Shown: positions 497 to 17,722 of the stretch, piece by piece | Position numbering within the stretch: position 1 is the first letter of the stretch | How the letters are laid out: each line of letters starts with the position of its first letter | DNA from: an uncultured Candidatus Saccharibacteria bacterium | GTDB lineage: Bacteria; Patescibacteriota; Doudnabacteria; UBA920 | NCBI GenBank assembly: GCA_964504715.1 | Contig: CAZDEP010000003.1 | Coordinates: forward strand, 10,111 to 74,110 | Length of the DNA stretch: 64,000 nucleotides | Direction: 5' to 3' | Notes under the pieces: model-generated | What the model was told of the DNA's origin: nothing | Database searches by the model: none | Seen by the model: only the letters and a program-made list of their open reading frames with translations | Position numbers and translations under genes: made by a program

Positions 497-994
497 TTAA
501 TAAGGTAAGTTTCGGATAAGGCTTCGCTCTTTAAAGCTTGTGTGAGCTTCTGCAGTTACTATTATGTGGTCCAAAACCTCTATGCCGAGTAATTTACCGG
601 CATCGACCAAACGTTTGGTAACGTGCAAATCTTCCGTAGAAGGTTCAAGGCTTCCGCTCGGGTGGTTATGAACAAAGATTACTGAACAAGAATTCTTTAG
701 AATAGCTGTCCTAAAACATTCCCTCGGATGAATCAGACTGGCGTTTAAAGTACCAACACTGACTATTTCCCTGCCTAAAATATGATTTTGAGTATCCAGG
801 AAAAAGACGCAGAAGTGTTCTTTACGGGCTTTCCTAAAACTCTTACATCTTAAAGCAATCCCTGCCGGACTAAGAACACAATCCTTCATAGCCTTAACTG
901 TGAGATTGTTAGCAATATACTGTTTGGCTTTCTCTTTAGCCTCGTCTTCACTCTCTGCCATAAACTGGTAGTTAATATTGATTTGGTATTCCAT
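497..994 (-). CDS. radC: RadC-like JAB/MPN-domain protein
   Basis: 165 aa with the JAMM-like motif HNHPSG...PS..D (VHNHPSGSLEPSTEDLHVTKRL), typical of the RadC/UPF0758 family. A strong RBS (AAAAGGAG) precedes the ATG. Confidence 0.85.
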   Translation of the reverse strand: MEYQININYQFMAESEDEAKEKAKQYIANNLTVKAMKDCVLSPAGIALRCKSFRKARKEHFCVFFLDTQNHILGREIVSVGTLNASLIHPRECFRTAILKNSCSVIFVHNHPSGSLEPSTEDLHVTKRLVDAGKLLGIEVLDHIIVTAEAHTSFKERSLIRNLPY

Positions 995-1007
995 AAAACT
1001 CCTTTTT

Positions 1008-1150
1008 GATTACTTATTATGGCGACCAAAAAACTCTGGAATGTTTCGGCAGTCAACGGGATTAAAACCGATTTATGGCTTACGGCAGATAAAGAGGTTT
1101 TACCCTTTACGGCCAAAAACCCAGAGTTAAAATGGGAAGCCCTAAGGAAG
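1008..1150. repeat. Copy A of a duplicated ~140 bp leader element with a 60-nt identical core (1048..1107), sitting immediately 5' of radC on the minus strand
   Basis: The core ggcagtcaacgggattaaaaccgatttatggcttacggcagataaagaggttttaccctt is identical at 1048-1107 and 1719-1778. The flanks are also similar (ttattatggcga; taaaatgGgaaGcc..aagcaaa). Confidence 0.8.
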
Positions 1151-1464
1151 CAAAAAAGTTTTTATTTGTATTTCAAGATAATTTACTATGGGACATGGAA
1201 AAAGCCACCCTGTAAAGGATGGCTTAATCTTGTTTTTATTTTAAACTTCCCATGTCTTGCTGATATAGAGATTAGAACCTCCGCATCCTGCACAGGAGAC
1301 TATGTCTAGGTCAATGACTTCCTGCCTGCTGGCAATCCAGCAATTCCGGCACGCCGGGCAGGAAATTAAGTATTGAATGTGAGCAGTTATTGTTTTTTGC
1401 ATAAATTTTTAAATTAAGGATTTAAAGAGAGTATTTTTGTTTTTGTTTGTATTTTTGTATTTGT

Positions 1465-1662
1465 TTAGAGTTGCTCTTTTACAGCGATATACGCCGAGAC
1501 TTTTTTCCCGAAATCGTAGTAGTCGCTGGAAGCCGGGTCTACAGAATTTCTCAACTCCATAAAGTAGTTGATACTTCTCTGCAAGGACGCTTTGATGATA
1601 TTTGACTTCATCTCCGGCGTTATTCCCTGTTTTTGGCTAACTGCCTTTTTGAATTTAGGCAT
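1465..1662 (-). CDS. small hypothetical protein (65 aa), basic N-terminus
   Basis: ORF preceded by the RBS AAAGGAG. It has the same conserved leader element upstream as radC. Confidence 0.45.
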   Translation of the reverse strand: MPKFKKAVSQKQGITPEMKSNIIKASLQRSINYFMELRNSVDPASSDYYDFGKKVSAYIAVKEQL

Positions 1663-1678
1663 ATTAACTCCTTTCTTT

Positions 1679-1830
1679 GCTTAATTATTATGGCGAAATA
1701 ACACTGGCCGCAGGTTATGGCAGTCAACGGGATTAAAACCGATTTATGGCTTACGGCAGATAAAGAGGTTTTACCCTTGACCGGCTATAAACGGCCAGTA
1801 AAATGAGAAACCATAAGAAAGCAAAGGCTG
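1679..1830. repeat. Copy B of the duplicated leader element (core 1719..1778), 5' of the 65-aa gene on the minus strand
   Basis: See copy A. The spacing from core to downstream start codon is the same (~55-58 nt). Confidence 0.8.
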
Positions 1831-2017
1831 TTTTAAAAGTCGCAGACAACAAAGAAGAGCGGTATGAAGACCGCTCTACATTTTTGTGGGTGTATTAAAA
1901 TTTATTCTTGCTTTGCCAAATTAAATGGTTCTTCTATCAAAGTCATTACATAATTAATATCCTCTAGCTTATTAAGATTTACTTCAGTAACCCCACCTCT
2001 ATAATGACCAATTCGAT

Positions 2018-2565: not shown

Positions 2566-2823
2566 TTAATCCTTTACTGACCGGTTAAATACCCAAGCGA
2601 ATAGCCAGCCTGCAATATGGCTGTATATAGCCATCTGTATCAAGCCGCCTATGAAGCCGCCGAAGGTATAACTCCTGCCATCTATGCTTGCTACATGGAG
2701 AAGCGACTGCATTAACCGCGCAGCAAATTCGGGGAATAGATAAACAAATAGTGAACATACGGCATACAAAAGTGCCGCTATTCCAGTAATTCCCCAAGCA
2801 AACTTAACTTTATTGAGTTGCAT
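2566..2823 (-). CDS. small integral membrane protein (85 aa)
   Basis: Two to three hydrophobic helices. It lies immediately downstream of the copA-like gene on the same strand. Confidence 0.5.
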   Translation of the reverse strand: MQLNKVKFAWGITGIAALLYAVCSLFVYLFPEFAARLMQSLLHVASIDGRSYTFGGFIGGLIQMAIYSHIAGWLFAWVFNRSVKD

Positions 2824-2870
2824 AATTTTGTTTCTGGTTAGTTTTTATCGACCTTTATATTTTAACACTT

Positions 2871-5800
2871 TTATTGAACAAAATCACTGGTAATATAATG
2901 GAAGTTGTCTAGAGGCGTTTTTGTTTCAGGCAATACTCCAGCCACAACCACATCCTTTCCAAAGAAGTTAGTTAGGGTATCACCTGGCTTTTGAAATAAC
3001 TTCTCAGCTTCCATAACTTGAGCTTCTTTGCTGCCAATATAAACTGGCAAATACCGCTTTGTTCCAAACGTTACCGGAAATAACCCGTCCCGATTAATGC
3101 TGCTACTATAAACGGCAGGGATAGTATTTTGATCTATTCCATAGAATAGCTTTAACTCATCTTTTGCCTGAGCTGCTGATGCGCCAGAAACCGAAGCGAT
3201 TTGGGTTTCAGTTTTCATGATATGGGTATTATCCAAAAATGTTCCGGTCGGTTTTAAAATACCCACAATCTTCATGCTTGGTATGCCAAAGAAATTGGCC
3301 AGGGTATCGCCAGGCTTCTCAAACAGTTTTTCTTTTTTCATCATTTCCGCCTCATCGTAGCCGATGATCATTTCGTCTTTTCCTAAATTTCCAGATCCTT
3401 CTGCCAACGGCATATCAATATTCCCTTGGTTAGTTTGCAAGAAGAATTTTGGATTATTCTCGGCAAAGTTTACCCTCATGACAGACTGCTTTATCAGGTT
3501 CTGGCTCTTTTGCGTAATCTCAGGAGATGCCTTAACAACAGTCATGGCTTTGGTTGGTTCTGCCATGCGCGAGCTGAATTGGGCGAACTCAAAGAATACA
3601 AGGGAAAAGAATACGGCCATGGCCACCGGAGCCAATGCGGATATCCAGTTGCGTTTGGTCGGCTTAAAGAACCGCAAGGTCAGGGAATTTGTAACAACCG
3701 AAACAGAGCTTAAAGCCATAGCTAGCCCAGCTAGTTCTGGCTTCAAGACCAACCCCAAACCCATAAATACGCGAGCAGCAATTGGGATGCCTACGACATT
3801 GTAGAATAACGCAAAGAACATATTTTGTTTAATTTTGCTCATGGTTTCGCGGGAGAGCTGGATGGAATTGACCACATCATTCAAGTCGCTTCTCATAATT
3901 ACGATGCCGCCGGTTTCCATGGCAACGTCAGTGCCATTGCCCATGGCAATACCGAGGTTAGCCTGCGCCAGTGCTGGTGCGTCATTAATGCCATCGCCAA
4001 CCATGGCAACTTTCTTGCCATCCGCTTGCAGCTTTTTCACCTCGTTGGCTTTATCTTCCGGCAATACCTCTGCCAGCACATTGGTAATACTGACTTGGGA
4101 AGCAATGGCTTTGGCCGTGCGTTCGTTGTCGCCGGTGATCATGTATACCGTAATACCCATTTTCTGAAGCTTTTCAACTGCAGCTTTGGAAGTGGCTTTT
4201 ACAGTATCTGCCACCGCCACTACCCCAAGCAAATTCTCATTTGTGCCGAGCAACATGGCAGTCTTACCAGCTTCTTCAAGCCTTGATTGTTTTTTTCCGA
4301 CTTTCTCCGGGTTAATGCCTGCAACATCAGACATCATTTTGCGGTTACCAAAATAGTAGGTAATGCCATAAATATCGCCCTGCACTCCATGTCCGGGAAC
4401 GGCCTTGAAGTTTTTGACTTCCAGCAAATCCACATCTTCGTCCTGCGCGTGGCTATAAATAGCTTCCGCTAACGGATGCTCGGAAAGCTTTTCCAAGCTG
4501 GCAGCAATCTGCAAAACATCATCTTCGTCTTTGTCTGCAAACGCAAGAATATCAGTTACCTCCGGTTTGCCGTAAGTTAACGTTCCGGTTTTATCAAAGA
4601 TAATAGTATTGATCTTGCAAGCGGCCTCCAAAGGTTCGCCGCCTTTAACCAATATGCCATTTTCCGCACCCTTGCCAGTGCCTACCATAATAGCCGTAGG
4701 AGTAGCAAGTCCCAAAGCGCAAGGACAAGCGATGACGATAACGGCTGTAAACGCCATCAAGGCAAAAGCTAACGTTGCGCCTAGGAAGAAATACCAAACC
4801 AAGAACGTGATGACTGCAATCACAATAACCGCCGGAACAAACCAGGCGGAAATTTTGTCTGCAACGGCCTGTATGGGAGCTTTGGATCCTTGGGCTTCTT
4901 CAACTAAGCGGATAATTTGCGCCAGCACGGTTTCGCTGCCGACCTTAGTAACTTCAAACTCAAAGCTGCCGGTCTTGTTAAGGGTTCCACCTGCCACGTT
5001 ATCTCCAACCTTTTTTTCTACGGGCAAGCTTTCACCGGTCAACATAGATTCATCAACGGCGGAGGATCCTTTAATAATACGTCCGTCAATTGGAATTTTT
5101 TCTCCGGGGCGCACGATGACAATGTCTTTATGGACAACTTGATCGATAGCGATATCCTGCGTGCCGCCATTGCGAATCACTCGGGCTGTTTTTGCCTGAA
5201 GACCCATTAATTTCTTAATGGAATCTGAGGTCTTGCCTTTGGTCCTGACTTCCAACCACTTACCCAAGATTACGAAGGTAATCAGAAATGCCGCGGTTTC
5301 AAAATATAAATCTTGAATTTTTCCGCCATTTAACCCGAGTAGAGTTTTATTTGCGACAGCGAAAAACACAAAAGTCACTAAGCTGTAAAAGTAAGCGGTA
5401 GAAGTGCCAATGGCTATTAAGCTATCCATGTTAAAGGTTTTCATCCGCAAGGCTGACCACATGCCCTTATAGAATCCCTTGCCAATAATGAACTGGACAG
5501 GTGTGGCAAGGATAAGGGAAACAATGCCTACATAAGGCAAAAGCTGCGCTTTGCCCGGCATCCAGCCAAAGAAGTCAAAGAACATGAAGTAAAGCATTGG
5601 CGCGCTCAAGATTGCGCTAAACAAAAATTTCTTCCAGTATGATCCAATTTCTGCCTGCCTTTTCTTGGCGTCGAACTCCGTATCTTTTGCATCAACCTCT
5701 TCGGCCTTATAACCAACTTTCTTTACTGCCGCGACAAGGTCTGAAATTTGAGTTTGGGAGTTATCGAATACAATTACGGCTTTTTCTGCCGCAAAATTTA

Positions 5801-6482
5801 CGCTAGCTTGGGAAACGCCCGAAACTTTCTTTAAAGACTTTTCAATAATGCCAGCACAAGAAGCGCAGTGCATGCCTGAAAGAGAAAGGCTGATTTTTCT
5901 GCTCTTGCTATTGCTCTCAATTGCGGCCGGAACGGCTGTCATGGCGACTGCCTGTGCCTGAGGTGACTGAATCCGCGGCGAATTTTGTTGTTCACTGCTG
6001 ACCTGATCAAAGACATTAAAGAACTTCGCGCTTTTCACTAATTGCTCTAAAAACCCTTTGGCCTCTTCTTGTCCTTCAGGAACAGCAATGTCAGCAGTTT
6101 TGTGGCTCGTATAAGTGCCTTCAAAATATGGCTTGCCAGTTTCTGATTCCATCACTTTCCCGTGCGCTTCCAAGCGAGTGTCCAATTTTACTGAAAAAGG
6201 TATTCCTTTTGCCACCCTGGTTTTTACTTCTATACTTTCGTTGGCAACAGGTTCTGAAGCTGTTCCTCCGCTGATTTCAGCGACATACCCCGCCCGCTTA
6301 ACAGCATCTGCAATTTGTTCTGTGGTAACCAGTTCAGGGTTTGCCTTGACTGTGCCTTTGCCTTCGGCAGCAGATATCTGGATTTCTCCTACGCCTGGCA
6401 ATTCTCTAAGTTCCTCCGTTATAAGTGTTTCGCAAGAGCTGCAATGCATCCCTTGAATGTTTAAATGTAAAGTATTTTCCAT
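2871..6482 (-). CDS. copA: copper-translocating P1B-type ATPase with two N-terminal HMA domains (GMHCSSC, GMHCASC) and an unusual C-terminal extension: one extra TM helix plus a tandem duplicated ~90-aa domain
   Basis: Motifs TGES, CPC ([12 protein letters not shown]), DKTGTLT and [10 protein letters not shown]. Two MxCxxC metal-binding domains. The C-terminal repeats share AEKLF.KPGDTL.NFFG...LDN.H. Confidence 0.9.
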
Positions 6483-6502
6483 ATCGGTTTATTAGTTACA
6501 GA

Positions 6503-6709
6503 TTATGCTGCGTGCACTTTGTATTGAGTGCCAGCAAGCGCTTCTTGCAATTCGTTAATTGTAATTTCCCTGTCAGCCTCCACTTCTCCTTGAGCCTCAT
6601 TGCCACTTTGCTCTAACTTTACGTTCCTGACTCCGCTAATTTTACTAATCTTCATGCGCGACACTTTGCCGCATGCATCGCAATTTAAATTTGTTAATAA
6701 AAATTTCAT
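6503..6709 (-). CDS. copZ: CopZ-like heavy-metal-associated (HMA) domain metallochaperone
   Basis: 68 aa, beta-alpha-beta-beta-alpha-beta-sized, with the CxxC metal-binding motif (LNCDACGKV). It sits directly upstream of the copA-like gene. Confidence 0.7.
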   Translation of the reverse strand: MKFLLTNLNCDACGKVSRMKISKISGVRNVKLEQSGNEAQGEVEADREITINELQEALAGTQYKVHAA

Positions 6710-6723
6710 AGTGTAATAGTTAA

Positions 6724-8409
6724 TTATTCTACGTTTATAATCCCGCGCTGCACTCCCATGGCGCAGGTGATGGGATATTCTCCCTTGTCCTTGGCGGTGA
6801 AGTCCAAAGCCAGTGTTTTATTTTTTTCGAGCAGCTCCGGTTGGTTATACAAGCCTGGAATCATTATGGTGCTCATACATCCATAGCCTTCGTCTTTTAC
6901 ATCAACTTCTAACCGCGCGGCTTGCCCAACTTTTACTGTGAATGTATTTGGTTCAATGTCATTATCAGTTCTATAGACTGTTTTTAATATTTGTGTGCCA
7001 GTTGCAGGTTCAGCGGTTTTTGCTTCAACTGCCGGTTGTGCTTGCTGGGGAGTTGAAGCCGGGGTAGCCTGAGACTGGACGGGGTTTGTGTCCTCAATGA
7101 CATTAAACGATCCTCTATACATTCCCATTGAACACGTAAAGCTTACGGTGCCGGTTTTAGTAGGAGTGAATTCAATAATATTTTCCCCTGATTTTAGCGG
7201 TTGGCTAATTTTATAAGCAGACATTACTATATAGCTTGAACATGAGTATTGGCTGGTAGAATTGATTATCCATTTTACCGGCCGTCCTTTGACCACAGTA
7301 AATGACTTTGGGCTGTAACCGCTGTCGCTTTGGGTCATTCTTACTTCTTGCGCTGGTCCCGTTGCCTGCGCTGTATTTGCCGTTTTCGTGCCTGGCGTGA
7401 ATACAATCCTGCTGGCGTTGGAAATATTAAATATTCCCAACACAATAACTGCTATGCCAGCGCCCATAAAGAAGATGCGGGCTTTTTGGCCTTTGAATAC
7501 ACTGGACAATCCTCCGATCCCTAAAAGTCCAGGAGCGGTGCCTAAGGCAAACAGCATCATAATTAATGCTCCTTTGGTAAGGCTCCCGGTGCTTACCGCA
7601 TACAGCTGCATGGCTTGTGTAAAACCGCATGGCAAGAAGAACGTCATGGCTCCGCCAATAAACGCAGACTTGTGGCTATACTCCTTGTTCTCATTGCGGA
7701 TGCCTAATGCGCGGGATATGAACTTTGGAAGGGTTATGGTTTTGTCCCGCAATGCCGGAAATATTTCAATGAGCTTAAGCCCCAGGAAGATCATCACCCC
7801 GCCCACAATAATAGTCATGATTCCCAAGGTGGAAGCAGAAGGTCTGAAAGCAGATCCCAACAGGCCAATTGCCCCGCCAAAGAAGGCATATCCTGCAATT
7901 CTCCCGACGTTAAAGAATATGTGCGGACGGAACTTTTGCGCTGCCGTCGCTTCTGGGTGAAGTTCGCTATGACGAGCCGCCAAACCTAATACTAATCCGC
8001 CGATTAAAGCCATACAGGACGAAAATCCGGCAACTAGCCCTACTAGAACAACCACGCCCATACTGCCGCCGCCTGTGCTGATGTTCACATTGAACAGCCC
8101 GGTAGAACTTGCGATAAAATACAGGACTGCAAGAATGGAACCGGCAAGCAGCAAGTAAAAGTAATCTCGCGGGTTGCGCGATATCCAAGGCAGTTTCTCT
8201 TTTTGCCCGATTTCATAACCCGCAGCCTGCACAGCATCCCTTATACTTTGTTTGGAAGGCGTTGGTCCTTCAAAATGGACTTTCGCTTTTCCGTCTTTAT
8301 AGCTTACATTGACTGATTTGACTCCCTTAACTTCTTTAAGGTTGTCTTCAATGAGGATTTCGCACGATCTACAGTGCATCCCTCTAATTGGAACAATAAA
8401 TTTTCCCAT
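6724..8409 (-). CDS. HMA-domain fused TauE/SafE(DsbD_2)-like polytopic membrane protein with a C-terminal tandem pair of ~55-aa C-x-M-G-M (cupredoxin-like?) domains; putative metal permease
   Basis: N-terminal GMHCRSCE HMA domain and ~8 TM helices with an LPCGFTQAMQ motif. The C-terminus has the repeats FTCSMGMYRGSFNV and ITCAMGVQRGIINV. Confidence 0.7.
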   Translation of the reverse strand: MGKFIVPIRGMHCRSCEILIEDNLKEVKGVKSVNVSYKDGKAKVHFEGPTPSKQSIRDAVQAAGYEIGQKEKLPWISRNPRDYFYLLLAGSILAVLYFIASSTGLFNVNISTGGGSMGVVVLVGLVAGFSSCMALIGGLVLGLAARHSELHPEATAAQKFRPHIFFNVGRIAGYAFFGGAIGLLGSAFRPSASTLGIMTIIVGGVMIFLGLKLIEIFPALRDKTITLPKFISRALGIRNENKEYSHKSAFIGGAMTFFLPCGFTQAMQLYAVSTGSLTKGALIMMLFALGTAPGLLGIGGLSSVFKGQKARIFFMGAGIAVIVLGIFNISNASRIVFTPGTKTANTAQATGPAQEVRMTQSDSGYSPKSFTVVKGRPVKWIINSTSQYSCSSYIVMSAYKISQPLKSGENIIEFTPTKTGTVSFTCSMGMYRGSFNVIEDTNPVQSQATPASTPQQAQPAVEAKTAEPATGTQILKTVYRTDNDIEPNTFTVKVGQAARLEVDVKDEGYGCMSTIMIPGLYNQPELLEKNKTLALDFTAKDKGEYPITCAMGVQRGIINVE

Positions 8410-8428
8410 GAAGTAATTAATTTAATTA

Positions 8429-9490
8429 TTAGACCCCGCAACCACCACCGCCCTTAGGTGCAACCGGCTCTACTTGGCTTCTAATTTGTTGGTATCCTTG
8501 GGCGCTGGAAAACGCTGCTCCCAATACTTCCTGCGGGTTGACCTGTTTCCAGTCAACTCCTTGGCTTTTTTTATACTTGGCTATTGTCAGGTAAGTATCC
8601 GGGAACCAATAAGAATTTACTGTTAGAGCATACTTATACATGTCCTGTTCGTTTACCCCTTGGGAAGCCATGAGTTCCAGCAAGCCCAGCATTGCCATCC
8701 CATGGTTGCAATCAGGGAAGTGGGTGGAATTGCCGCAGCAAGGGCGGAAGATTCCCCGCGAGACTTTATCTACAATCGCTTGCTGCTCTGCTGTTAAAGT
8801 TATAAAGCGATGTTTTGAATAGTGCTCCATGGCAGTTCCGCTGGCCAATGTCCATCCTCCCGTTGAGGCGAACTTTCCGGCATCGCCGCCGTATTGCTTA
8901 TCCCACATTTCGCCTTTATCCAGGATCTCATTTTTCTGTCCTAGTCCGAATGCCCAGAGAATATTTAACAGGCCGGAAGAATTTTGAGCGGTAAATTTGA
9001 TTTTCCCATTATTGCTTTCTGTCAGCATCTTTTTCATATCCGCTGGCATTCCGCCTCTTTGGGCATATAAGGCCTCTATTTTTTGCTGGTCAATTACTCC
9101 TTCTTTGACCAATTGCTTGCCTAAGTCTCCCCATACAACCGGCAATTCAAGGCCAGCGCTAGGTAAAACTTTTTCTTCCATATCTTTATCGATCGGAGCG
9201 GCGGCTGGCGCAGTTGAAGTTTGGGCTAAGGTCTGGGTGGTAACCGCCGTCTGTTGCGCCGGTTTGACACCCAATACTTTATTAAGCCAAGGTTTGCGTT
9301 TTACCGTAACCTGAAACTCAAAGGTAGAGGTTATGATAAGGATCGCGATTGCGGCCATTCCGGCCATTTCCAGATAGGAAAAGTCTTCCATGCGGGCATA
9401 TGTTTTTTTCAGAAACATTTTTATCCCGCTTTTTTCATGATGGTGTTCAGTAATTTTTTGCTCTTCACCGGGAACATGATGGTTTTCCAT
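8429..9490 (-). CDS. membrane-anchored hypothetical protein with a His-rich N-terminus (HHVPGEEQKITEHHHE) and a Cys/His cluster CCGNSTHFPDCNHGM; putative metal-binding exoprotein
   Basis: 353 aa, a single TM segment after the His-rich tail, and a conserved-looking Cys/His cluster. No family recognised. Confidence 0.55.
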   Translation of the reverse strand: MENHHVPGEEQKITEHHHEKSGIKMFLKKTYARMEDFSYLEMAGMAAIAILIITSTFEFQVTVKRKPWLNKVLGVKPAQQTAVTTQTLAQTSTAPAAAPIDKDMEEKVLPSAGLELPVVWGDLGKQLVKEGVIDQQKIEALYAQRGGMPADMKKMLTESNNGKIKFTAQNSSGLLNILWAFGLGQKNEILDKGEMWDKQYGGDAGKFASTGGWTLASGTAMEHYSKHRFITLTAEQQAIVDKVSRGIFRPCCGNSTHFPDCNHGMAMLGLLELMASQGVNEQDMYKYALTVNSYWFPDTYLTIAKYKKSQGVDWKQVNPQEVLGAAFSSAQGYQQIRSQVEPVAPKGGGGCGV

Positions 9491-9526
9491 AATCTTATTT
9501 TATTGTTTAATAATTTTAATTATTGA

Positions 9527-10045
9527 TTATTCCTGGCAACAGTCGACCAATTTGCTGACTATATCTTCTTTTGTCCACGGTTTATTCTCCCCATTTTGGT
9601 CGTGCTTATTAAGCTGGTTTTCTCCTATTTGCTTAATGTCACCGGTGTTAATAAGTTTTAGCCTTAATCCCCAAAACAGAGAATAGAGTTCGTAGGATTT
9701 GCCAAAAATGTCCTGCGCTTCTTCAGTTTTGCCGTTGCTTTGAAGCTTCGTGCCTACTTCCATAAGCCTCATTGAGGCGGCAAGCAAGTGTTTTGATATG
9801 CACCAAGTCTCGCCTTCATTTTTGTCCATCATGCGGCCGAGCAATTGCTTCCTAATTTCCCTCGTTTGCTCAAGTAGATTAAAGTATTCGGGTTTGCTGG
9901 TTTTTTGGCCGGTAAAGAAGAAGTGTTCTTCTAAGCTAATCAAGTTCATTATTGCCAAGCTTAGGTCTTCTTCGGTGGAAAGATCAACAGTGCCGCTGGC
10001 TTTAAGTTCCTCCACTTTTTTCATTAGCTCTTTTTGTGTAAGCAT
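9527..10045 (-). CDS. hypothetical cytoplasmic protein (172 aa)
   Basis: Clean ORF in an operon-like arrangement. No motif recognised. Confidence 0.5.
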   Translation of the reverse strand: MLTQKELMKKVEELKASGTVDLSTEEDLSLAIMNLISLEEHFFFTGQKTSKPEYFNLLEQTREIRKQLLGRMMDKNEGETWCISKHLLAASMRLMEVGTKLQSNGKTEEAQDIFGKSYELYSLFWGLRLKLINTGDIKQIGENQLNKHDQNGENKPWTKEDIVSKLVDCCQE

Positions 10046-10049
10046 AAGA

Positions 10050-10838
10050 TTACATTTTAAGGATTAATAGTCCCAAGAGGATCATAATGATCCCGCCAAT
10101 CCATCGCATTGCATTCAGGTGGTTTCGTTTCCAGTCTTGCATCTTAGTAAGCACGGTTTGTTCGCTTGCTACAAACAATACAGCCACCAATGGAGCTACG
10201 AATAAAATGTTATACCATATTAGATATCCCATTCCTCGGAATTTTGTCTGGGCATCGTGGAGAAGCCCTAGCACCATCAAGTATGGTCCGCCGGTGCAGG
10301 GAAACTCGCATAATCCCACAAGCGCGCCAAGCAGGAACACAGCGGGAATGGAAGTCTTTTCCATCAGGTCGGCAATTTTACCATGGACAGCATGAGGAAT
10401 TTGAAGCTTTACCGGAAACTTAGGAAAGAACTGGTTGATAATATTTAGAATGCCCATGCCAATAAGCAGATAGGCTCCCAGCACGCCCATAAAGTGGGGA
10501 GTGTTAAATAAGTGCAAAGCTCCTAAAATGCCAAGGCCAATAGCCAGATAGGCTATAAAGATTCCAAATATGTAAGCCCCGCCAATTTCTAACATTTTTC
10601 TCCTGCTAAAGGTTCCTAAGCTAAATAAGAAAGCTATAGTAAGCAGCAGTATGGAGAAAGCACAGGGGTTTATGCTGTCGATTAACGCCGCGAGGGAAAC
10701 CAATGGAAACAGTTTTGTGCCTCCACCGGATATGTTCCAGATTACTTGAGTGGCGGAAGAACTGGATTTGAGGAACAAGAGAATGCCGAAAGCCAATGCA
10801 ACCCCGCCTAACACAAAGAAAAATCTTTTATAGTTCAT
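10050..10838 (-). CDS. ccdA: CcdA/DsbD-family thiol:disulfide interchange membrane protein (cytochrome c biogenesis CcdA-like)
   Basis: Polytopic protein with conserved Cys-containing motifs (INPCAFSILL and LCEFPCTGGPYL), typical of CcdA/DsbD TM domains. Confidence 0.8.
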   Translation of the reverse strand: MNYKRFFFVLGGVALAFGILLFLKSSSSATQVIWNISGGGTKLFPLVSLAALIDSINPCAFSILLLTIAFLFSLGTFSRRKMLEIGGAYIFGIFIAYLAIGLGILGALHLFNTPHFMGVLGAYLLIGMGILNIINQFFPKFPVKLQIPHAVHGKIADLMEKTSIPAVFLLGALVGLCEFPCTGGPYLMVLGLLHDAQTKFRGMGYLIWYNILFVAPLVAVLFVASEQTVLTKMQDWKRNHLNAMRWIGGIIMILLGLLILKM

Positions 10839-10842
10839 AGGG

Positions 10843-11382
10843 TTATGGAGTTACCTGGGCTTTAAAGGCCAGGTTTAATTTGCCGCCGTCCGTGGTTTCA
10901 ACATAGATATCGCGGGCAATGGATCCGACGCCGGCCGGACCATGGGCTGCCGGGTCATATACAGCTTCTATGGTCGCCTCGACTCCGGGCGCTAGCGTTT
11001 CGGTGATAGTAGGGATTGCGCCATGCCCGGGCATGCCGAATGGCCCCGCTCTGCGATCGCCATTGTAGAGTGTGGCTTTAGTGCACATGCACGAAGTATA
11101 TATTTTGCTGATTGTAATCGTGTCAGAGGTTGGGTTTTTTATTTTGAAGCTTTTCTTAACCACACCTTTGGCCATTGAAATGGTTCCGAAGTCGTAAGCT
11201 TTTTCTAAAGCCTCAATAGGACTGGCTTTAGAAGATCCGGTCTGCGTTGAGGCAGCGGGAGAGGAAGAAGAGCTGGTAGAAAATACAAGCGAGCCTCCAA
11301 GCACTACAAAGAATAAGGCGATGCCAGCCACAACCCAATTCGCTTTCTTCTGAGTTTCTTTTATTTGATAACGATGTGACAT
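10843..11382 (-). CDS. DUF1573-domain protein, membrane anchored
   Basis: N-terminal TM segment, then YDFGTI....FxIKNxG...L.I..I.TSCMCT, characteristic of DUF1573 (often found with thioredoxin/CcdA systems). Confidence 0.65.
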   Translation of the reverse strand: MSHRYQIKETQKKANWVVAGIALFFVVLGGSLVFSTSSSSSPAASTQTGSSKASPIEALEKAYDFGTISMAKGVVKKSFKIKNPTSDTITISKIYTSCMCTKATLYNGDRRAGPFGMPGHGAIPTITETLAPGVEATIEAVYDPAAHGPAGVGSIARDIYVETTDGGKLNLAFKAQVTP

Positions 11383-11476
11383 AGTTTTTAATAAGCATTA
11401 ATAGAGACACTGTCTATATTAGTTCCTCAGCTCGCTTGTCTTTGTAAACAAAGACAGACTCGCTTACGTCACTAAT

Positions 11477-11508
11477 AAAAAACACCTTTGCAATCTGGTG
11501 CAAAGGGT
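11477..11508 (-). terminator. rho-independent terminator (hairpin cctttgc/gcaaagg followed by a U-tract on the minus strand)
   Basis: 7-8 bp GC-containing stem and a 7-nt loop. An A6 run on the plus strand gives U6 on the minus strand. It lies in the 184-bp gap after the 11567-12016 gene. Confidence 0.5.
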
Positions 11509-11566
11509 CTTGTATTAGCTTATGCTAAAACTATATCAAAAGTTTTAGTAAAAGTTAAAGACCGCC

Positions 11567-12016
11567 TTACACCAAAGCAAAGGCGTAGGAAGGATCTTTC
11601 TTTTGGGTAACGGCAATCCAAAATCCTAGTTGATTTTGGAAAACCCCTACAGTTTCTTCAAATAGTTGTCTAAGCCGAACTTTAATACGGCTGTAATAAA
11701 GGTTAGTTGAATCCAACAGCCCGAAAGCAACAAAAGCCAATAGAACAAAAAGCATTAAGCCTAGTATGCTCGCTCCAATGTTATTTGGAATAGCATTCGC
11801 CAAATTTTGCATAACGCCCAAATGGTAATTTAAACAAACACCGCTGTCTTTAGGTTGGGAGCAGTCGCCTCCATTTACCGAAACAGGGCAGTTTTCTGCT
11901 GCCATCATGGTATTGTGATTCATGGTTGCCATGCTAATAATCCCAATGCTCAAAACGCCCAAAGTAAGGACTGCGAGAACTGTGCGAGTTATAGGATTAT
12001 TGCCTAAGTAGTTCAT
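11567..12016 (-). CDS. hypothetical membrane protein with a Cys-rich extracytoplasmic segment (CPVSVNGGDCSQPKDSGVC)
   Basis: Two TM segments flank a Cys-containing loop. Confidence 0.5.
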   Translation of the reverse strand: MNYLGNNPITRTVLAVLTLGVLSIGIISMATMNHNTMMAAENCPVSVNGGDCSQPKDSGVCLNYHLGVMQNLANAIPNNIGASILGLMLFVLLAFVAFGLLDSTNLYYSRIKVRLRQLFEETVGVFQNQLGFWIAVTQKKDPSYAFALV

Positions 12017-12037
12017 ACTTTTTCTATTATATCATAT

Positions 12038-12475
12038 TTACAACTTATAGTCAATATCTGTATTTTTGCTTGATTTTACTAGGAGAATAGACACTATGCC
12101 GGTAACCATAAGTTGGATCAGGGGATATATCCCAATTTTTGTCCCTAGCAGTAGAGGCATTGAATCAGTATATGCCCACAGATTATTGGATAATGCACCC
12201 CGCTCCACTAAAAAGGCAATTGCCAGCTCAAACAGTAAAAATATAAATAGTTTTACTAATGTAGGATGTCTAAACCAGTTTACCTTCTTAATAGACATAT
12301 CTACCAGCCAATAACTAATCGAGATTGCAGCCGCATCGCCCAGCGCACCGAGAAAGCAAAATGGTAAATGATTCCAGAACCCGCCATAACCTTGATAAAG
12401 GGGAGCTTGTATATTCTCCCATACCACGTTCAATAAAAAACTTATACCTATTATAGCAGTAAAAATCTTTTTCAT
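12038..12475 (-). CDS. hypothetical polytopic membrane protein
   Basis: The ORF-track start (12514) overlaps the upstream ATPase gene. The internal Met (MKKIFTAIIG...) at 12475 is a more plausible start. Confidence 0.5.
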   Translation of the reverse strand: MKKIFTAIIGISFLLNVVWENIQAPLYQGYGGFWNHLPFCFLGALGDAAAISISYWLVDMSIKKVNWFRHPTLVKLFIFLLFELAIAFLVERGALSNNLWAYTDSMPLLLGTKIGIYPLIQLMVTGIVSILLVKSSKNTDIDYKL

Positions 12476-12479
12476 GAAA

Positions 12480-14663
12480 TTATGATAGGCTCTTGCGTCT
12501 AAGCATAACGGCATTTAATGCAACAATAACTGTGCTAAGCGACATAAATACTGCCGCTAAAGCAGGTTGCATTAATATTCCTTTTGAAGCCAGAACCCCA
12601 GCCGCCAGCGGCAATGCAACAACATTGTATCCAGTCGCCCAAAACAGGTTTTGAATCATCTTGGAGTAAGTCAGTTTTGAAAGTTTTATGACTTTAGGAA
12701 TATCGCGCGGGTCATTTTTGACTAAAATAATTCCAGCCGACTCAATTGCTACATTTGTTCCAGCACCAATGGCAATACCTAAGTCTGCCTGCGTCAGAGC
12801 CGGTGCGTCATTAATCCCGTCGCCGACCATGGCAACTTTTAAACCTTTGTCTTGCAATAATTTAACCTTACTAGCTTTTTGCTCAGGCAAAACCTTGGCA
12901 AAATATTCATCAATCTTCAGTTCTCCCGCAACCCAGGCAGCTACATCTTGAGAATCACCAGTAATCATCCCAACTCGGACACCCATGGCTTTTAACGACT
13001 TTATGGCTTCTCTTGATTCCTCACGAATAACATCTGCCAAGGCGATACTGCCAACCAGTTTTTTATCTACAATGACAAAGATAATAGTTTTACCTTGTTT
13101 TTCCGCTCGGCTGTTTTGTTCGACCAGCTGGCTATCCATCCCTGCCCCTGATTCTTGCAGAAGCGTGGCGCTACCAACAAAAACTTCTTTGCCGTCTACT
13201 ATTGCTTTTGTTCCTTTGCCTGGAATCCGCTGAAAGTCCAAAGCGGGACTAAACTGCAATTTCCTTTTTTCGACTTCCTGCATAATAGCTTTGGCAACCG
13301 GATGTTCGGAGTTAGCGTTGACTGAAGCGGCTAACTTAAGCACAAGTTCGGGACTGTTACCGGAAGAACCTATGAGCTTATCAATTCCATATTCGCCTTT
13401 AGTCAAGGTGCCGGTTTTATCAAATAATACAACATCAATATTCCTGGCGGCTTCTAAAGCTAAACGCTGCTTAACCAGCAGGCCATTCTTTGCCGCCATG
13501 TTTGTGGAAATAGAAGCGACCAAAGGAATGGCCAAACCTAAAGCGTGCGGACAGGCGACCACTAAAACCGCCACTGTTCTTTCCAGAGCAAAGTTAACCC
13601 CGGAACTATTTAATATCCAAATAATAAAAGTTAATATTCCGGACACCAGAGCGATTATGGTTAGATAAAAAGCGGCGCGATCTGAAAGCATTTGTAGCTT
13701 GGATTTGGAGCTTTGCGCTTCCGCGACTAATCGCATAACGCCGGAAAGAAAGGTTTTTTCTCCGATCTTGTCTACTTTTATCTTCAAACTACCATCACCG
13801 TTAATCGTACCGGCAATGGCTTCACTCCCAATGTCTTTACTAACCGGTTTAGACTCGCCGGAAACCATAGACTCGTTAACCTCCGATCTTCCTTCAGCAA
13901 TAGTCCCATCGGCTGGAATTTTTCCGCCCGGTTTAACTAAAATAACATCACCTTCTTTTAACTGCTCCAGCGGGATGATTTCGGTTTTGTTACCCCTTAC
14001 AACTTCCGCCGTGTCGGGTAAAAGCTTGGCCAGTTCCTTAAGCGCGCCTTGGGCGCCCTGGACGGCACGCATTTCCATCCAATGACCCAAAAGCATAATG
14101 GTAATTAGCGTGGTTAATTCCCAAAACAGGGTTTCGCCATTTAACAGTAATTTGGAATACAGACTATACACGTAAGCGACCGTAATCGCCATGCCAATCA
14201 AGGTCATCATACCCGGCTGTTTGGCTTTTAGTTCCCTGTAAGCTCCTTGCAAAAATACCCAACCGCCGTGAAAGAAGACAACTGAACCCAAAATTAAAGG
14301 AATATAACCTGACCCGGGGAAAACCGGAGCTGTAAACCCCAGCAGTTGGGTTACCATTTCAGAATACAAAACCACAAGCACGCTTAAAACAAGGCTCACC
14401 CAAAACTTATTTTTAAACACATTAACATTATGGCCTTCGTGCTTATTTACTCCTTCGTTGTGACCATTGTGTCCCATATGTTCTTCTGTTTCTGGGCCTT
14501 TTCTTTTTTCAGGCAATAATTGCATGCCGCAGCCCGGGCATTTGCCTGGCTGATTTTGCCGCACTTGCGGGTGCATTGGACAGGTATAAACAATATCCGA
14601 CTTCGGTTCTTCGATGTGATGCGTATGATTATGATGTTGGTGATTATTGTTATGCATAGTCAT
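12480..14663 (-). CDS. copB: CopB-type (P1B-3-like) copper P-type ATPase with a His-rich N-terminus and an N-terminal CPMHP-type heavy-metal-binding domain
   Basis: N-terminus HNNNHQHHNHTHH, then YTCPMHPQV...GKCPGCGM. Core motifs TGES-like, CPH (VVACPHALGLAIP), DKTGTLT and [10 protein letters not shown]. Confidence 0.85.
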   Translation of the reverse strand: MTMHNNNHQHHNHTHHIEEPKSDIVYTCPMHPQVRQNQPGKCPGCGMQLLPEKRKGPETEEHMGHNGHNEGVNKHEGHNVNVFKNKFWVSLVLSVLVVLYSEMVTQLLGFTAPVFPGSGYIPLILGSVVFFHGGWVFLQGAYRELKAKQPGMMTLIGMAITVAYVYSLYSKLLLNGETLFWELTTLITIMLLGHWMEMRAVQGAQGALKELAKLLPDTAEVVRGNKTEIIPLEQLKEGDVILVKPGGKIPADGTIAEGRSEVNESMVSGESKPVSKDIGSEAIAGTINGDGSLKIKVDKIGEKTFLSGVMRLVAEAQSSKSKLQMLSDRAAFYLTIIALVSGILTFIIWILNSSGVNFALERTVAVLVVACPHALGLAIPLVASISTNMAAKNGLLVKQRLALEAARNIDVVLFDKTGTLTKGEYGIDKLIGSSGNSPELVLKLAASVNANSEHPVAKAIMQEVEKRKLQFSPALDFQRIPGKGTKAIVDGKEVFVGSATLLQESGAGMDSQLVEQNSRAEKQGKTIIFVIVDKKLVGSIALADVIREESREAIKSLKAMGVRVGMITGDSQDVAAWVAGELKIDEYFAKVLPEQKASKVKLLQDKGLKVAMVGDGINDAPALTQADLGIAIGAGTNVAIESAGIILVKNDPRDIPKVIKLSKLTYSKMIQNLFWATGYNVVALPLAAGVLASKGILMQPALAAVFMSLSTVIVALNAVMLRRKSLS

Positions 14664-14669
14664 AAAGTT

Positions 14670-15446: not shown

Positions 15447-15449
15447 AAA

Positions 15450-16142: not shown

Positions 16143-16144
16143 AT

Positions 16145-16801: not shown

Positions 16802-16802
16802 A

Positions 16803-17273
16803 TTATTTAAGTTGCCAGATAAAGCTTCTTATTGCCACATCGCCCACTTTCAAAATCCTTATTTCAATTTCCTTTGGCAAAGACGTGATCGTATTAAAAA
16901 TCAAATTGCCCTCAATATGATGCCCGCCGGGACCCGGGCCTTCCCAGTTTACCGCCTTATATTCTTTGCCTTGTTCATCAAACAATGAAACGGCTTTGGT
17001 TAAATCGTAGTCTAATTCTACGGTGTGGGTGTCCAAAACAATATTAAATTTCCATAGCTTTGAGTTTTGTGATACATCAAGCGGAGTAACATCAACCTTA
17101 ACTGGGCCCTCCTCATTAGTTTTGGCTTCTAAACCTGTTTGGGATCCCAAACTTGTGATGGGATTTTGAATGCTATCCGGATTGCTGGCGGTTTTATTCC
17201 TAGATAATAAAAATAAGACGGCCAAAACGGCAATAAAAAATACTACGATAATTAAAATTTTGTTATTTTTCAT
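16803..17273 (-). CDS. membrane-anchored extracytoplasmic beta-rich protein (possibly a CopC/YcnI-like copper-binding protein)
   Basis: N-terminal TM anchor, then WEGPGPGGHHIEGNL. It overlaps the upstream gene by 4 nt (ATGA). Confidence 0.45.
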   Translation of the reverse strand: MKNNKILIIVVFFIAVLAVLFLLSRNKTASNPDSIQNPITSLGSQTGLEAKTNEEGPVKVDVTPLDVSQNSKLWKFNIVLDTHTVELDYDLTKAVSLFDEQGKEYKAVNWEGPGPGGHHIEGNLIFNTITSLPKEIEIRILKVGDVAIRSFIWQLK

Positions 17274-17716: not shown

Positions 17717-17722
17717 ATGGAA

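What the first reader, a model, noticed from the sequence alone, without database searches (positions are those of the whole stretch)
1008..1830. Duplicated ~140-bp leader element with a 60-nt perfectly identical core 5' of two unrelated minus-strand genes
The same element lies 55-58 nt upstream of the radC-like gene and of a 65-aa ORF. It has a 60/60 identical core, similar flanks, and strong AAAGGAG RBSs after it. The core has internal complementarity (gggattaaaacc / ggttttaccc; ggcag...ctgcc on the transcript strand). The first copy would be coding in a +-strand ORF (1019-1309), but the second copy contains an in-frame stop, so it is not protein-coding. Candidates are a shared cis-regulatory RNA (riboswitch or leader), a duplicated promoter cassette, or the terminal repeats of a tiny mobile unit carrying the 65-aa gene.
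Basis: seen in the sequence. Interest (0 to 1): 0.6.

Follow-up and report, generated by a model that had tools for sequence, protein, structure and literature searches.

The report
Hairpin promoter for single-stranded DNA
The repeat is a conserved, roughly 160-base DNA hairpin that most likely acts as a promoter only while the DNA is single-stranded, switching on two small gene units next to a DNA-transfer (type IV secretion) gene cluster in an uncultured Candidatus Doudnabacteria bacterium; this would be indirect evidence that such clusters move DNA as single strands.

Summary
Two ~162-nt copies (996-1157 and 1667-1828, minus strand) share a 60/60 identical core, and each ends a few bases before the ribosome-binding site of radC or of a 65-aa gene.

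It is a family. I found about 42 copies in Candidatus Doudnabacteria genomes and peat metagenomes. Every copy with readable downstream sequence heads either a RadC unit or a 65-aa(+53-aa) unit, or its remnant.

The element is one long hairpin with strong covariation. On the strand opposite the genes, all copies carry TTGAC(C/T/G)-N16-18-TA(A/C/T)AAT. Folded as DNA, that strand is duplex from -35 to -12, unpaired from -11 to -8, loosely paired to -1, and duplex again from +1.

No conserved sense promoter exists; in most copies a terminator lies just upstream. There is no Rfam match and no similarity to F-plasmid Frpo.

Best explanation (0.55): a compact Frpo-like single-stranded-DNA promoter that reads into the genes when the plus strand is single-stranded.

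Rivals are an RNA leader, an outward dsDNA promoter and a priming site. The transferred strand and the transcripts are untested.

The parts
996..1157 (-). Copy 1 of the element (RadC type): one long imperfect hairpin from TTTGCTT to AATCAAA, ending 4 nt before the GGAG of the radC ribosome-binding site
   Evidence: Covariance model R1, 172.1 bits. DNA fold of the plus strand -27.3 kcal/mol, z -4.2. RNA folds.
1667..1828 (-). Copy 2 of the element (65-aa-gene type)
   Evidence: R1, 177.1 bits. DNA fold of the plus strand -31.0 kcal/mol, z -5.7.
1048..1107 (.). 60-nt core of copy 1, identical to 1719-1778: the -35-proximal stem, the inner stem and the apical hairpin
   Evidence: Apical modules are mosaic between element types in other genomes, so the identity is best explained by recombination between the two copies.
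1719..1778 (.). 60-nt core of copy 2
1106..1133 (+). Sigma-70-type promoter on the strand opposite radC: TTTACG (1106-1111), 16-nt spacer, TAAAAT (1128-1133). It lies on the 3' arm of the plus-strand hairpin.
   Evidence: The same geometry is found in all 34 family copies examined.
1777..1804 (+). The same promoter in copy 2: TTGACC (1777-1782), 16-nt spacer, TAAAAT (1799-1804)
1018..1024 (-). Inferred transcription start region for radC when the plus strand is folded. It is the template position facing +1, where the duplex resumes (GCC/GGC). The predicted leader is about 25-30 nt.
   Evidence: Inference from the pairing profile and the folds. Not measured.
1689..1695 (-). Inferred transcription start region for the 65-aa gene
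   Evidence: Inference. Not measured.
497..994 (-). Short RadC-like JAB-domain gene (165 aa), the unit driven by copy 1
   Evidence: Pfam PF04002, E 2.5e-41. The same protein lies next to the VirB4/TraC-like gene on contigs L001 and L002.
1465..1662 (-). 65-aa gene, first gene of the unit driven by copy 2. It matches no known family; its relatives form a small restricted family of 55 clusters.
1241..1402 (-). 53-aa CxxC...CxxC (zinc-ribbon-like) gene, second gene of the copy-2 unit. It follows the 65-aa gene in 13 of the related loci.
   Evidence: Weak NF047912 match below cut-off.
1200..1226 (-). Intrinsic terminator after the 53-aa gene (AGCCATCC-TTTACA-GGGTGGCT followed by TTTTT), about 45 nt upstream of copy 1
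   Evidence: Sequence. Conserved upstream of RadC-type copies in other loci. This stretch aligned to the terminator part of an unrelated Rfam leader model.
1856..1877 (.). Two-way terminator hairpin (AGAGCGG...CCGCTCT), about 30 nt upstream of copy 2
   Evidence: Conserved upstream of 65-aa-type copies.

Best explanation
The element is a compact promoter that works on single-stranded DNA, in the way of Frpo in plasmid F.

Proposed mechanism. When the window's plus strand is single-stranded (after transfer through the neighbouring type IV secretion system, or during rolling-circle replication of the element), each ~160-nt element folds back on itself. The fold rebuilds a double-stranded sigma-70 promoter. 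The 3' arm supplies the non-template -35 (TTGACC or TTTACG) and -10 (TAAAAT) hexamers. The 5' arm is the template and runs on directly into the template of radC or of the 65-aa/53-aa unit. The -10 region is already unpaired in the fold, and a short duplex resumes at about +1. RNA polymerase could therefore bind, start about 25-30 nt before the start codon, and make a short unstructured leader with a strong ribosome-binding site. Once the complementary strand is made the hairpin is gone. The genes, which have terminators upstream and no promoter of their own, fall silent. The same hexamers now point outward, in most copies into a terminator hairpin.

Shown: the hairpin and its covariation; the invariant hexamers, their spacing and their strand; the unpaired -10; the absence of a conserved sense promoter; the setting beside a transfer gene cluster.

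Inferred: that the plus strand is the one that becomes single-stranded, that polymerase uses the fold, and where transcription starts.
For: (1) It is a family: 42 strong sense-strand matches in 26 sources, from Candidatus Doudnabacteria genomes and peat metagenomes.

(2) The hairpin is under selection. 89.5% of cells pair, against 82.4% in shuffles (0/500 reach it) and 32-53% when partners are slid. The covariation score is 0.190 against 0.087 (0/500). In the outer stem 7 of 9 pairs change on both sides. In further copies the inner stem is replaced wholesale, TAAAACC/GGTTTTA by TAAATTT/AAATTTA or by a GC-rich GGCGGC/GCCGC stem.

(3) On the strand opposite the genes, all 34 copies examined read TTGAC(C/T/G) or a near variant, then a spacer of 16 (29 copies), 17 (3) or 18 (2), then T34 A34 [A17 C12 T5] A33 A34 T34. 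The only variable base is position 3 of the -10 hexamer. The spacer sequence differs completely between subtypes.

(4) That covarying outer stem is the promoter spacer, so its partner lies about 90 nt away. An ordinary double-stranded promoter has no need of that.

(5) Pairing probabilities with DNA parameters over 37 copies: -35 and spacer mostly 0.75-0.99, with dips at the last -35 base and two spacer positions; T(-12) 0.91; A(-11) to A(-8) 0.07-0.20; -7 to -1 0.1-0.5; +1 to +17 mostly 0.7-0.9. This matches the shape of an open promoter complex.

(6) The non-template side of the bubble is invariant, while the template side varies in both sequence and length.

(7) There is no conserved sense promoter. 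In most copies a sense-direction terminator lies between 1 and about 45 nt upstream.

(8) The element stays at the head of each unit although unit order and number vary between genomes. Copies are co-oriented in every multi-copy locus.

(9) Setting: convergent with a cluster encoding a coupling protein, a Replic_Relax protein, a VirB4/TraC-like ATPase and an M23 peptidase, and otherwise among metal-resistance and defence genes.

(10) Precedent: Frpo1 and Frpo2 of plasmid F are 92% identical, lie 5 kb apart upstream of different leading genes, and are switched off by conversion to double strand (PMC9849209). Frpo-like promoters are widespread in leading regions (PMC11541004).
Against: No experiment or transcript data bear on this. 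The nick site and the transferred strand are unknown, because the only relaxase candidate is an uncharacterised PD-(D/E)XK 'Replic_Relax' protein.

Most Patescibacteria type IV secretion clusters lack known relaxases and may not conjugate at all (PMC12102498).

The test for which strand folds is inconclusive by wobble pairs: 52 G-T pairs on the sense strand against 50 on the opposite strand. Only energies favour the opposite strand (35 of 37 copies, mean -32.9 against -29.6 kcal/mol).

The hexamers are canonical on one arm alone, so in double-stranded DNA they should still work as an ordinary outward promoter. In at least two copies (both in L006) an uninterrupted divergent gene starts about 90-110 nt away that they might serve, and two more copies (L007, L008) have a divergent ORF about 190-200 nt away.

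There is no sequence similarity to Frpo.

The apical hairpin is conserved in all copies for a reason this model does not explain.

The element precedes only two gene units, so the number of independent lineages is small.
Confidence: 0.55

Rival explanations
1. Structured 5' leader RNA. The hairpin is transcribed as part of the radC and 65-aa mRNAs and acts at the RNA level, for example as a protein-binding site, a processing or stability element, or a translational control. On this reading the antisense promoter-like hexamers are coincidental or secondary.
For: The sense-strand RNA folds well (z -4.2 to -6.1). Covariation is equally compatible with RNA. Two positions show G-U/U-G on the sense strand (columns 38/122 and 49/111). 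The apical hairpin is conserved in all copies. The element abuts the ribosome-binding site. In L010, L018 and L020 it follows the radC stop codon by only 7-11 nt, so read-through transcription could include it.
Against: There is no Rfam match even at E<=10. There is no conserved sense promoter, and in most copies a terminator lies directly upstream. An RNA role does not explain an invariant TAnAAT plus TTGAC at 16-18 nt on the opposite strand, with the variable base exactly at -10 position 3. It also does not explain why the other side of that internal loop is hypervariable. Inner stems are swapped wholesale. An A-C mismatch within the outer stem persists in six sequences, and it is a G-T pair only on the opposite strand. 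The opposite strand is more stable in 35 of 37 copies.
Confidence: 0.12
2. Ordinary double-stranded outward promoter. The conserved hexamers drive plus-strand transcription away from radC, producing a short RNA or a divergent neighbouring gene. The inverted repeat would then be an operator for a regulator, or be kept symmetrical by template switching.
For: The hexamers are canonical and need no fold to be recognised. About 25 nt after the -10 are conserved. In L006 both copies face an uninterrupted divergent gene about 90-110 nt away, and single copies in L007 and L008 face a divergent ORF about 190-200 nt away. Terminator hairpins lie 60-90 nt downstream in the window.
Against: Most copies, including both in the window and those in L012 and L017, have no divergent gene. 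One subtype has no terminator in that direction, so no consistent small RNA is defined. The putative ATG is not conserved. This reading does not explain compensatory changes between the promoter spacer and a partner about 90 nt away, or why pairing breaks exactly at -11 and resumes at +1. It leaves radC and the 65-aa unit without any promoter.
Confidence: 0.13
3. Single-strand origin (priming site). The folded plus strand recruits RNA polymerase only to make a short primer for complementary-strand synthesis, as in RNA-polymerase-dependent sso elements of rolling-circle plasmids and ICEBs1. Its position before the genes would be incidental.
For: The structural evidence is the same as for the best explanation. 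Frpo itself also primes DNA synthesis, and sso elements are strand-specific hairpins recognised as promoters (PMC4595007, PMC9849209). A stable hairpin can also stall complementary-strand synthesis (bioRxiv 10.64898/2026.01.09.698686).
Against: The distance to the start codon is constant at 61-67 nt from the inner stem. A strong ribosome-binding site lies about 20 nt after the inferred start. There are two or three copies per locus, and each copy with readable downstream sequence heads a gene unit that has no other promoter. The CS-6 motif of ssoA is absent. Priming could still be a second function.
Confidence: 0.1
4. Non-functional repeat: a recent local duplication, or a small mobile element (MITE) with terminal repeats.
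For: The 60/60 identity in the window suggests recent exchange between the copies. Assemblies break inside the element.
Against: The family is conserved across many genomes with covariation. Copies with readable downstream sequence stand before one of two gene units or its remnant, at a fixed distance. No copies occur at unrelated sites and none elsewhere in the 64-kb window.
Confidence: 0.03

Closest known systems
Frpo / ssi single-stranded-DNA promoters of enterobacterial conjugative plasmids (F Frpo1 and Frpo2, ColIb-P9 ssi)
   Same: One DNA strand folds into a long stem-loop that rebuilds -35 and -10 boxes for host sigma-70 polymerase. Near-identical copies stand upstream of different genes on the same strand. 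The genes lack other promoters and should fall silent once the DNA is double-stranded. The setting is beside a conjugation-type gene cluster (PMC9849209, PMC11541004).
   Different: There is no sequence similarity (blastn gives only 10-20-nt chance matches, nhmmer finds nothing). The element is about 160 nt, against about 310 nt for the F hairpin. Here the hexamers are canonical on one arm alone, whereas a simple consensus scan finds none in F Frpo2. The host is a Candidatus Doudnabacteria (CPR) bacterium with a monoderm-type secretion system. The origin of transfer and the transferred strand are unknown. The downstream genes are a short RadC and two tiny unknown proteins, not ssb/psiB/ardA.
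RNA-polymerase-dependent single-strand origins (ssoA/ssoU of rolling-circle plasmids, sso1 of ICEBs1) and the minus-strand origin of filamentous phages
   Same: These are strand-specific hairpins in single-stranded DNA that host RNA polymerase treats as a promoter (PMC4595007; the filamentous-phage case is from my own knowledge).
   Different: Those make short primers and are not coupled to a downstream reading frame. The CS-6 motif is absent here. Here every copy with readable downstream sequence sits at a fixed distance before a ribosome-binding site.
radC RNA motif (a bioinformatically defined 5'-UTR structure upstream of radC and other DNA-related genes; recalled from memory, accession not checked)
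   Same: A conserved structured element directly upstream of radC-like genes on mobile DNA.
   Different: No Rfam family matches either copy, at gathering score or at E<=10. The present element is a single unbranched hairpin with promoter hexamers on the opposite strand.
Integron attC sites
   Same: Imperfect hairpins of about 60-140 nt, functional as folded single strands, repeated between small gene cassettes that all face one way.
   Different: The R'' (RYYYAAC) and R' (GTTRRRY) core sites are absent on both strands. I noticed no integrase among the ORFs I annotated in the window or related loci (not all ORFs were scanned). Only two cassette types occur. The element lies 5' of its gene at a fixed distance from the start codon.

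Membership tests
Frpo-like single-stranded-DNA promoters (functional class) | One strand folds into a long, stable stem-loop | tested here: met
   Plus-strand DNA folds of -27.3 and -31.0 kcal/mol, z -4.2 and -5.7. Covariation over 32 sequences.
Frpo-like single-stranded-DNA promoters (functional class) | The fold rebuilds sigma-70 -35 and -10 boxes, oriented so that the folded strand is the template of the downstream genes | tested here: met
   The hexamers lie on the 3' arm of the strand that is the template for radC and the 65-aa gene. They are invariant in 34/34 copies with 16-18 nt spacing. The -35 and spacer are paired and the -10 is unpaired. That this orientation reads into the genes follows from strand polarity (inference).
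Frpo-like single-stranded-DNA promoters (functional class) | Lies on the transferred strand in the leading region next to the origin of transfer | not testable with these tools
   A coupling protein, a Replic_Relax protein and a VirB4-like cluster are adjacent and convergent. The nick site and its polarity are unknown.
Frpo-like single-stranded-DNA promoters (functional class) | RNA polymerase transcribes from the single-stranded form and not toward the genes from the double-stranded form | not testable with these tools
   This needs in vitro transcription or early-transfer RNA data. The only indirect support is that there is no sense promoter and terminators lie upstream.
Frpo/ssi sequence family of F, ColIb-P9 and relatives | Sequence homology to known Frpo/ssi elements | tested here: not met
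   blastn against the F leading region gives only 10-20-nt chance matches (E >= 0.08). An nhmmer profile of the family finds nothing. The closest plasmid-database hits are AT-rich 65-nt matches outside the element.
Cis-regulatory leader RNA / riboswitch (including any Rfam family) | Match to a curated covariance model | tested here: not met
   There are 0 matches at gathering score in the whole window. At E<=10 only scattered chance hits appear, none spanning the element with a meaningful score.
Cis-regulatory leader RNA / riboswitch (including any Rfam family) | The element is transcribed on the gene strand from a promoter upstream of it | tested here: inconclusive
   No conserved sense promoter was found, and in most copies a terminator lies 1-45 nt upstream. 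Read-through cannot be excluded without RNA data.
MITE / small mobile unit | Copies at many unrelated loci with terminal inverted repeats and target-site duplications | tested here: not met
   Every copy with readable downstream sequence precedes a RadC or a 65-aa/53-aa unit or its remnant, at a fixed distance. The window has only the two copies.
Integron attC | R''/R' core sites and an integron integrase nearby | tested here: not met
   There is no RYYYAAC or GTTRRRY on either strand of either copy. No integrase was noticed among the ORFs annotated, which did not cover every ORF.
ssoA-type single-strand origin | Conserved CS-6 (TAGCGT/A) loop motif | tested here: not met
   The motif is absent on both strands. 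Priming activity itself is not testable here.

The most novel reading that the evidence does not exclude
These hairpins are promoters whose direction depends on whether the DNA is single- or double-stranded. Folded single strand reads inward into the RadC and 65-aa units. After second-strand synthesis the same hexamers read outward, in most copies into a terminator hairpin. Their presence beside a Patescibacteria type IV secretion cluster that carries a coupling protein and a PD-(D/E)XK 'Replic_Relax' protein would then be the first sequence-level sign that such clusters deliver their own DNA as single strands, that is, that they conjugate using an unrecognised relaxase.
Probability: 0.4. Interest if true: 0.75.

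Novelty: new variant of a known kind. Interest (0 to 1): 0.62.

Why it matters
Single-stranded-DNA promoters have been shown experimentally only for a few enterobacterial plasmids. Elsewhere they are predicted from similarity or from single folds. This family would add three things.

First, it gives comparative evidence for the mechanism itself: compensatory changes across the promoter spacer, invariant hexamers on one arm, and a bubble at -11 to -8.

Second, at about 160 nt it is compact enough to synthesise and test directly.

Third, it bears on an open question. Type IV secretion systems are widespread in Patescibacteria, but known relaxases are mostly missing, so whether they conjugate is unresolved (PMC12102498). 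A promoter that only makes sense on single-stranded DNA, placed beside such a cluster, predicts which strand moves and in which direction, and it nominates the adjacent Replic_Relax protein as the relaxase.

It also marks the short RadC and the 65-aa and 53-aa proteins as candidate early establishment or anti-defence functions.

Tried and rejected
Rfam at gathering score (whole window) and at E<=10 (900-1950) found nothing relevant.

BLAST of 1000-1850 against plasmids returned only AT-rich chance matches in staphylococcal plasmids, outside the element.

A scan of viral contigs with the inner-stem pattern found nothing.

Exact-protein look-ups of the 65-aa and 53-aa products found nothing on record.

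The wobble-pair test for the folding strand was inconclusive, 52 against 50.

I tried to check the hexamer geometry against F-plasmid Frpo1 and Frpo2. The F hairpins fold as published, but a simple consensus scan finds no canonical hexamers on either strand, so F could not serve as a geometric control.

I looked for the same design upstream of distant RadC homologues (52-64% identity). The covariance model finds nothing there, and one GC-rich island has ordinary sense promoters. The design is therefore specific to this lineage as far as I could see.

A literature search gave no nick polarity for the Replic_Relax protein.

Rejected readings:
- Plus-strand ORF 1019-1309 or a short plus-strand peptide: the ATG lies within the -10 hexamer and is not conserved.
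- Retron: a reverse transcriptase lies next to the array only in L014 and L017.
- attC and ssoA: the defining motifs are absent.
- Processive antitermination RNA: each unit has its own copy after a terminator, which is not what a single upstream antiterminator would need.
Full report
**Observation.** The two copies are real.
- The repeat finder reports 1043-1154 against 1714-1825 (84% identity, 671 nt apart) and 1005-1025 against 1676-1696.
- The pairwise alignment shows a 60-nt block of complete identity, 1048-1107 = 1719-1778, with flanks 70-85% alike.
- A 48-nt piece of the core occurs exactly twice in the window and never in shuffled sequence.
- Both copies sit on the minus strand, just before strong AAAGGAG-type ribosome-binding sites.
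- Copy 1 precedes a 165-aa RadC-like JAB-domain gene (497-994; Pfam PF04002, E 2.5e-41). Copy 2 precedes a 65-aa gene (1465-1662), which is followed by a 53-aa CxxC...CxxC gene (1241-1402).
- Read along the minus strand, the layout is: terminator (1877-1856), copy 2, 65-aa gene, 53-aa gene, terminator (1226-1200), copy 1, radC.

**Structure.**
- Each copy folds into one long imperfect hairpin. As RNA, z is -4.2 to -6.1. As DNA, the plus strand gives -27.3 and -31.0 kcal/mol with z -4.2 and -5.7. No shuffle folds as well.
- Within the window the two copies already differ by compensating changes in the outer stem: CTCTGG/CCAGAG against CTGGCCG/CGGCCAG.
- No Rfam family matches, at gathering score or at E<=10.

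**It is a family.**
- A 20-mer from the core found six contigs among the species-representative genomes. Five are labelled Candidatus Doudnabacteria (Patescibacteria/CPR) and one is an unclassified bacterial MAG; three of the six contigs come from a single MAG.
- A gapped inner-stem pattern found 17 true loci in metagenomes, mostly peat and permafrost, plus four chance hits.
- I aligned 32 distinct full-length copies. A covariance model built from them finds 42 strong sense-strand matches in 26 sources. Five of these are more diverged copies, and the window holds only the two known copies.
- For the structure I specified, 89.5% of cells pair. Shuffles give 82.4% (0 of 500 reach the observed value) and slid partners give 32-53%. 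The covariation score is 0.190 against 0.087 (0/500). In the outer stem 7 of 9 pairs change on both sides.
- In the diverged copies the inner stem TAAAACC/GGTTTTA is replaced by TAAATTT/AAATTTA or by a GC-rich GGCGGC/GCCGC stem.
- The apical stem switches between GCC/GGC and CCC/GGG.

**What the element precedes.**
- Every copy with readable downstream sequence precedes one of two units: a short RadC (160-165 aa), or the 65-66-aa protein usually followed by the 53-aa protein. Degraded versions occur, such as a truncated RadC in L004 and units lacking the 65-aa gene in L023 and L024.
- The ATG lies 61-67 nt after the inner stem.
- The order and number of units vary between genomes. Some read E-p65-p53-E-RadC, others E-RadC-E-p65-p53, and L008 and L012 carry triple arrays. 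The element always stays at the head of its unit.
- Apical modules are mosaic between the two element types. The 60/60 identity in the window is therefore best explained by recombination between the copies, not by extra constraint on the core.

**The key finding: a promoter on the opposite strand.**
- On the window plus strand, the arm of the hairpin distal to the gene carries a sigma-70-type promoter in all 34 copies examined.
- The -35 is TTGACC (17 copies), TTGACT (5), TTTACG (5), TTGATC (3), TTGACG (3) or TTGTAC (1).
- The spacer is 16 nt (29 copies), 17 (3) or 18 (2).
- The -10 reads T34 A34 [A17 C12 T5] A33 A34 T34. The one variable base is position 3, the least informative position of the -10 consensus (established knowledge).
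- The spacer sequence differs entirely between subtypes while its length is kept. That spacer is the covarying outer stem, so it co-varies with a partner about 90 nt away.
- In the window the sites are TTTACG-16-TAAAAT (1106-1133) and TTGACC-16-TAAAAT (1777-1804).

**Pairing profile.** I folded the opposite strand with DNA parameters for 37 copies and averaged the pairing probability relative to the -10.
- -35 and spacer: mostly 0.75-0.99, with dips at the last -35 base and at two spacer positions.
- T(-12): 0.91.
- A(-11) to A(-8): 0.07-0.20.
- T(-7): 0.49.
- -6 to -1: 0.1-0.5.
- +1 to +17: mostly 0.7-0.9.

The fold thus looks like a promoter with its -10 already opened and a downstream duplex in place. 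The non-template side of the bubble is invariant, while the template side varies in both sequence and length.

**Geometry (inference from strand polarity).** If the plus strand is single-stranded and folds, its 3' arm supplies the non-template hexamers. Its 5' arm is the template and continues directly into the template of radC or the 65-aa gene. Polymerase would therefore read toward the genes, starting near 1018-1024 and 1689-1695, and give a leader of about 25-30 nt with the strong ribosome-binding site. On the minus strand the equivalent position of the -10 is TTTTTT or variable, so only the plus strand rebuilds a full promoter.

**No ordinary promoter for the genes.**
- Upstream of the element I find no conserved sense -35/-10.
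- In most copies a sense-direction terminator lies between 1 and about 45 nt before TTTGCTT.
- Sense-strand look-alikes fail at the critical positions. In T[T/G/A]TAAC the variable base falls at position 2. In CATAAT/CATAAC/CATAAA the variable base falls at position 6.

**Setting.**
- The identical RadC protein lies on two other contigs next to a VirB4/TraC-like ATPase and an M23 peptidase.
- In L012 the full cluster reads: coupling protein (TrwB/TraG-type, 920 aa), Replic_Relax protein (295 aa), several unknown genes, VirB4-like ATPase (799 aa), M23 peptidase. The element array is convergent with it.
- Elsewhere the module sits among metal-resistance genes (window and L005) or defence genes: type III R-M, NYN and a reverse transcriptase in L017; type I R-M, AbiEii and HEPN in L006.
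- Copies are co-oriented in every multi-copy locus.

**Comparison with known systems.**
- The closest kind is the Frpo/ssi single-stranded-DNA promoter. In plasmid F, Frpo1 and Frpo2 are 92% identical, lie 5 kb apart, stand before different leading genes, fold into stem-loops carrying -35 and -10 boxes, and are inactivated by conversion to double strand (PMC9849209). Frpo-like sequences are common in leading regions (PMC11541004). The hairpin can also stall second-strand synthesis (bioRxiv 10.64898/2026.01.09.698686).
- Membership in that sequence family fails. There is no similarity to the F leading region. The F hairpin is about twice as long and shows no canonical hexamers in a simple scan.
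- I therefore file this element as working like Frpo, not as a homologue of it.
- RNA-polymerase-dependent single-strand origines are the next closest kind (PMC4595007). Priming may be a second function here.

**Weaknesses.**
- There are no transcript or biochemical data.
- The transferred strand is unknown. The model needs the coding strand of the secretion genes to be the displaced strand. To my knowledge this is the polarity of ICEBs1, but I did not verify it here, and it cannot be tested for this element.
- Most Patescibacteria secretion clusters lack known relaxases and their role in conjugation is open (PMC12102498).
- The wobble-pair count does not identify the folding strand, 52 against 50. 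Only energies lean toward the opposite strand.
- In double-stranded DNA the hexamers should still fire outward. In L006 both copies face an uninterrupted divergent gene about 90-110 nt away, and single copies in L007 and L008 face a divergent ORF about 190-200 nt away.
- The conserved apical hairpin is unexplained.

**Verdict.** The best explanation is a compact single-stranded-DNA promoter (0.55). The rivals are an RNA leader (0.12), an ordinary outward promoter (0.13), a priming-only origin (0.10) and a non-functional or mobile repeat (0.03). I rate it a new variant of a known kind, with interest 0.62.

Noticed in passing
window 42465-42536: An inverted repeat with 31-nt arms (84% complementary, 10-nt loop) lies about 150 nt upstream of an Nramp-family metal transporter gene (42686-44062, plus strand). 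There is no Rfam match at gathering score. It might be a regulatory hairpin or a terminator.
   Followed up: no
window 25548-25657: An inverted repeat with 27-nt arms (81% complementary) separated by 56 nt. It may lie between ORFs; I did not examine it.
   Followed up: no
window 2566-22361, minus strand: A large copper/heavy-metal cluster that all faces one way. It holds three P-type ATPases (2871-6482, with a long C-terminal extension; 12480-14663; 18863-20734), a DsbD_2+cupredoxin+HMA protein (6724-8409), a multicopper oxidase (20751-22361) and a DUF5676 membrane protein (2566-2823). It lies directly upstream of copy 2 and looks like cargo of the same element.
   Followed up: partly
L017 793-9533 (same in L014): In another genome, directly upstream of the element array, lie a type III restriction-modification pair, an NYN-domain protein and a 320-aa reverse transcriptase (RVT_1). 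The reverse transcriptase is not next to the element in other loci, so I did not link it to the element.
   Followed up: partly
L006 8-6647: Type I R-M (HsdS, HsdM), an AbiEii toxin and a RiboL-PSP HEPN protein are interleaved with the two units. Here the outward-facing hexamers of both elements point at divergent genes that start about 90-110 nt away.
   Followed up: partly
L001 1-82 and L002 1-82: Two independent Logan assemblies carrying the identical radC both end at the same base, in the apical loop of the element. This is an assembly break caused by the repeat or hairpin. Many family contigs are very short for the same reason.
   Followed up: yes
L012 180-3832: The secretion cluster carries a TrwB/TraG-type coupling protein (920 aa) followed by a 295-aa Replic_Relax (PD-(D/E)XK superfamily) protein. 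The latter is a candidate unconventional relaxase in a phylum where relaxases are mostly undetected.
   Followed up: partly
L031-L036 (distant RadC homologues, 52-64% identity): These RadC genes sit in long arrays of co-oriented 50-100-aa ORFs, together with DUF932, a primase-like protein, an SNF2 helicase or a serine recombinase. This resembles the anti-defence and establishment islands of conjugative elements. The hairpin family is absent there, and the GC-rich island L034 has ordinary sense TTGACA-N17-TATGCT promoters before several genes.
   Followed up: partly
L004 7127-7273; L023 2502-2892; L024 723-1099: Degraded versions of the units. In L004 the element is followed by a RadC truncated to 54 aa. 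In L023 and L024 the element is followed directly by the 53-aa gene, with the 65-aa gene missing.
   Followed up: no
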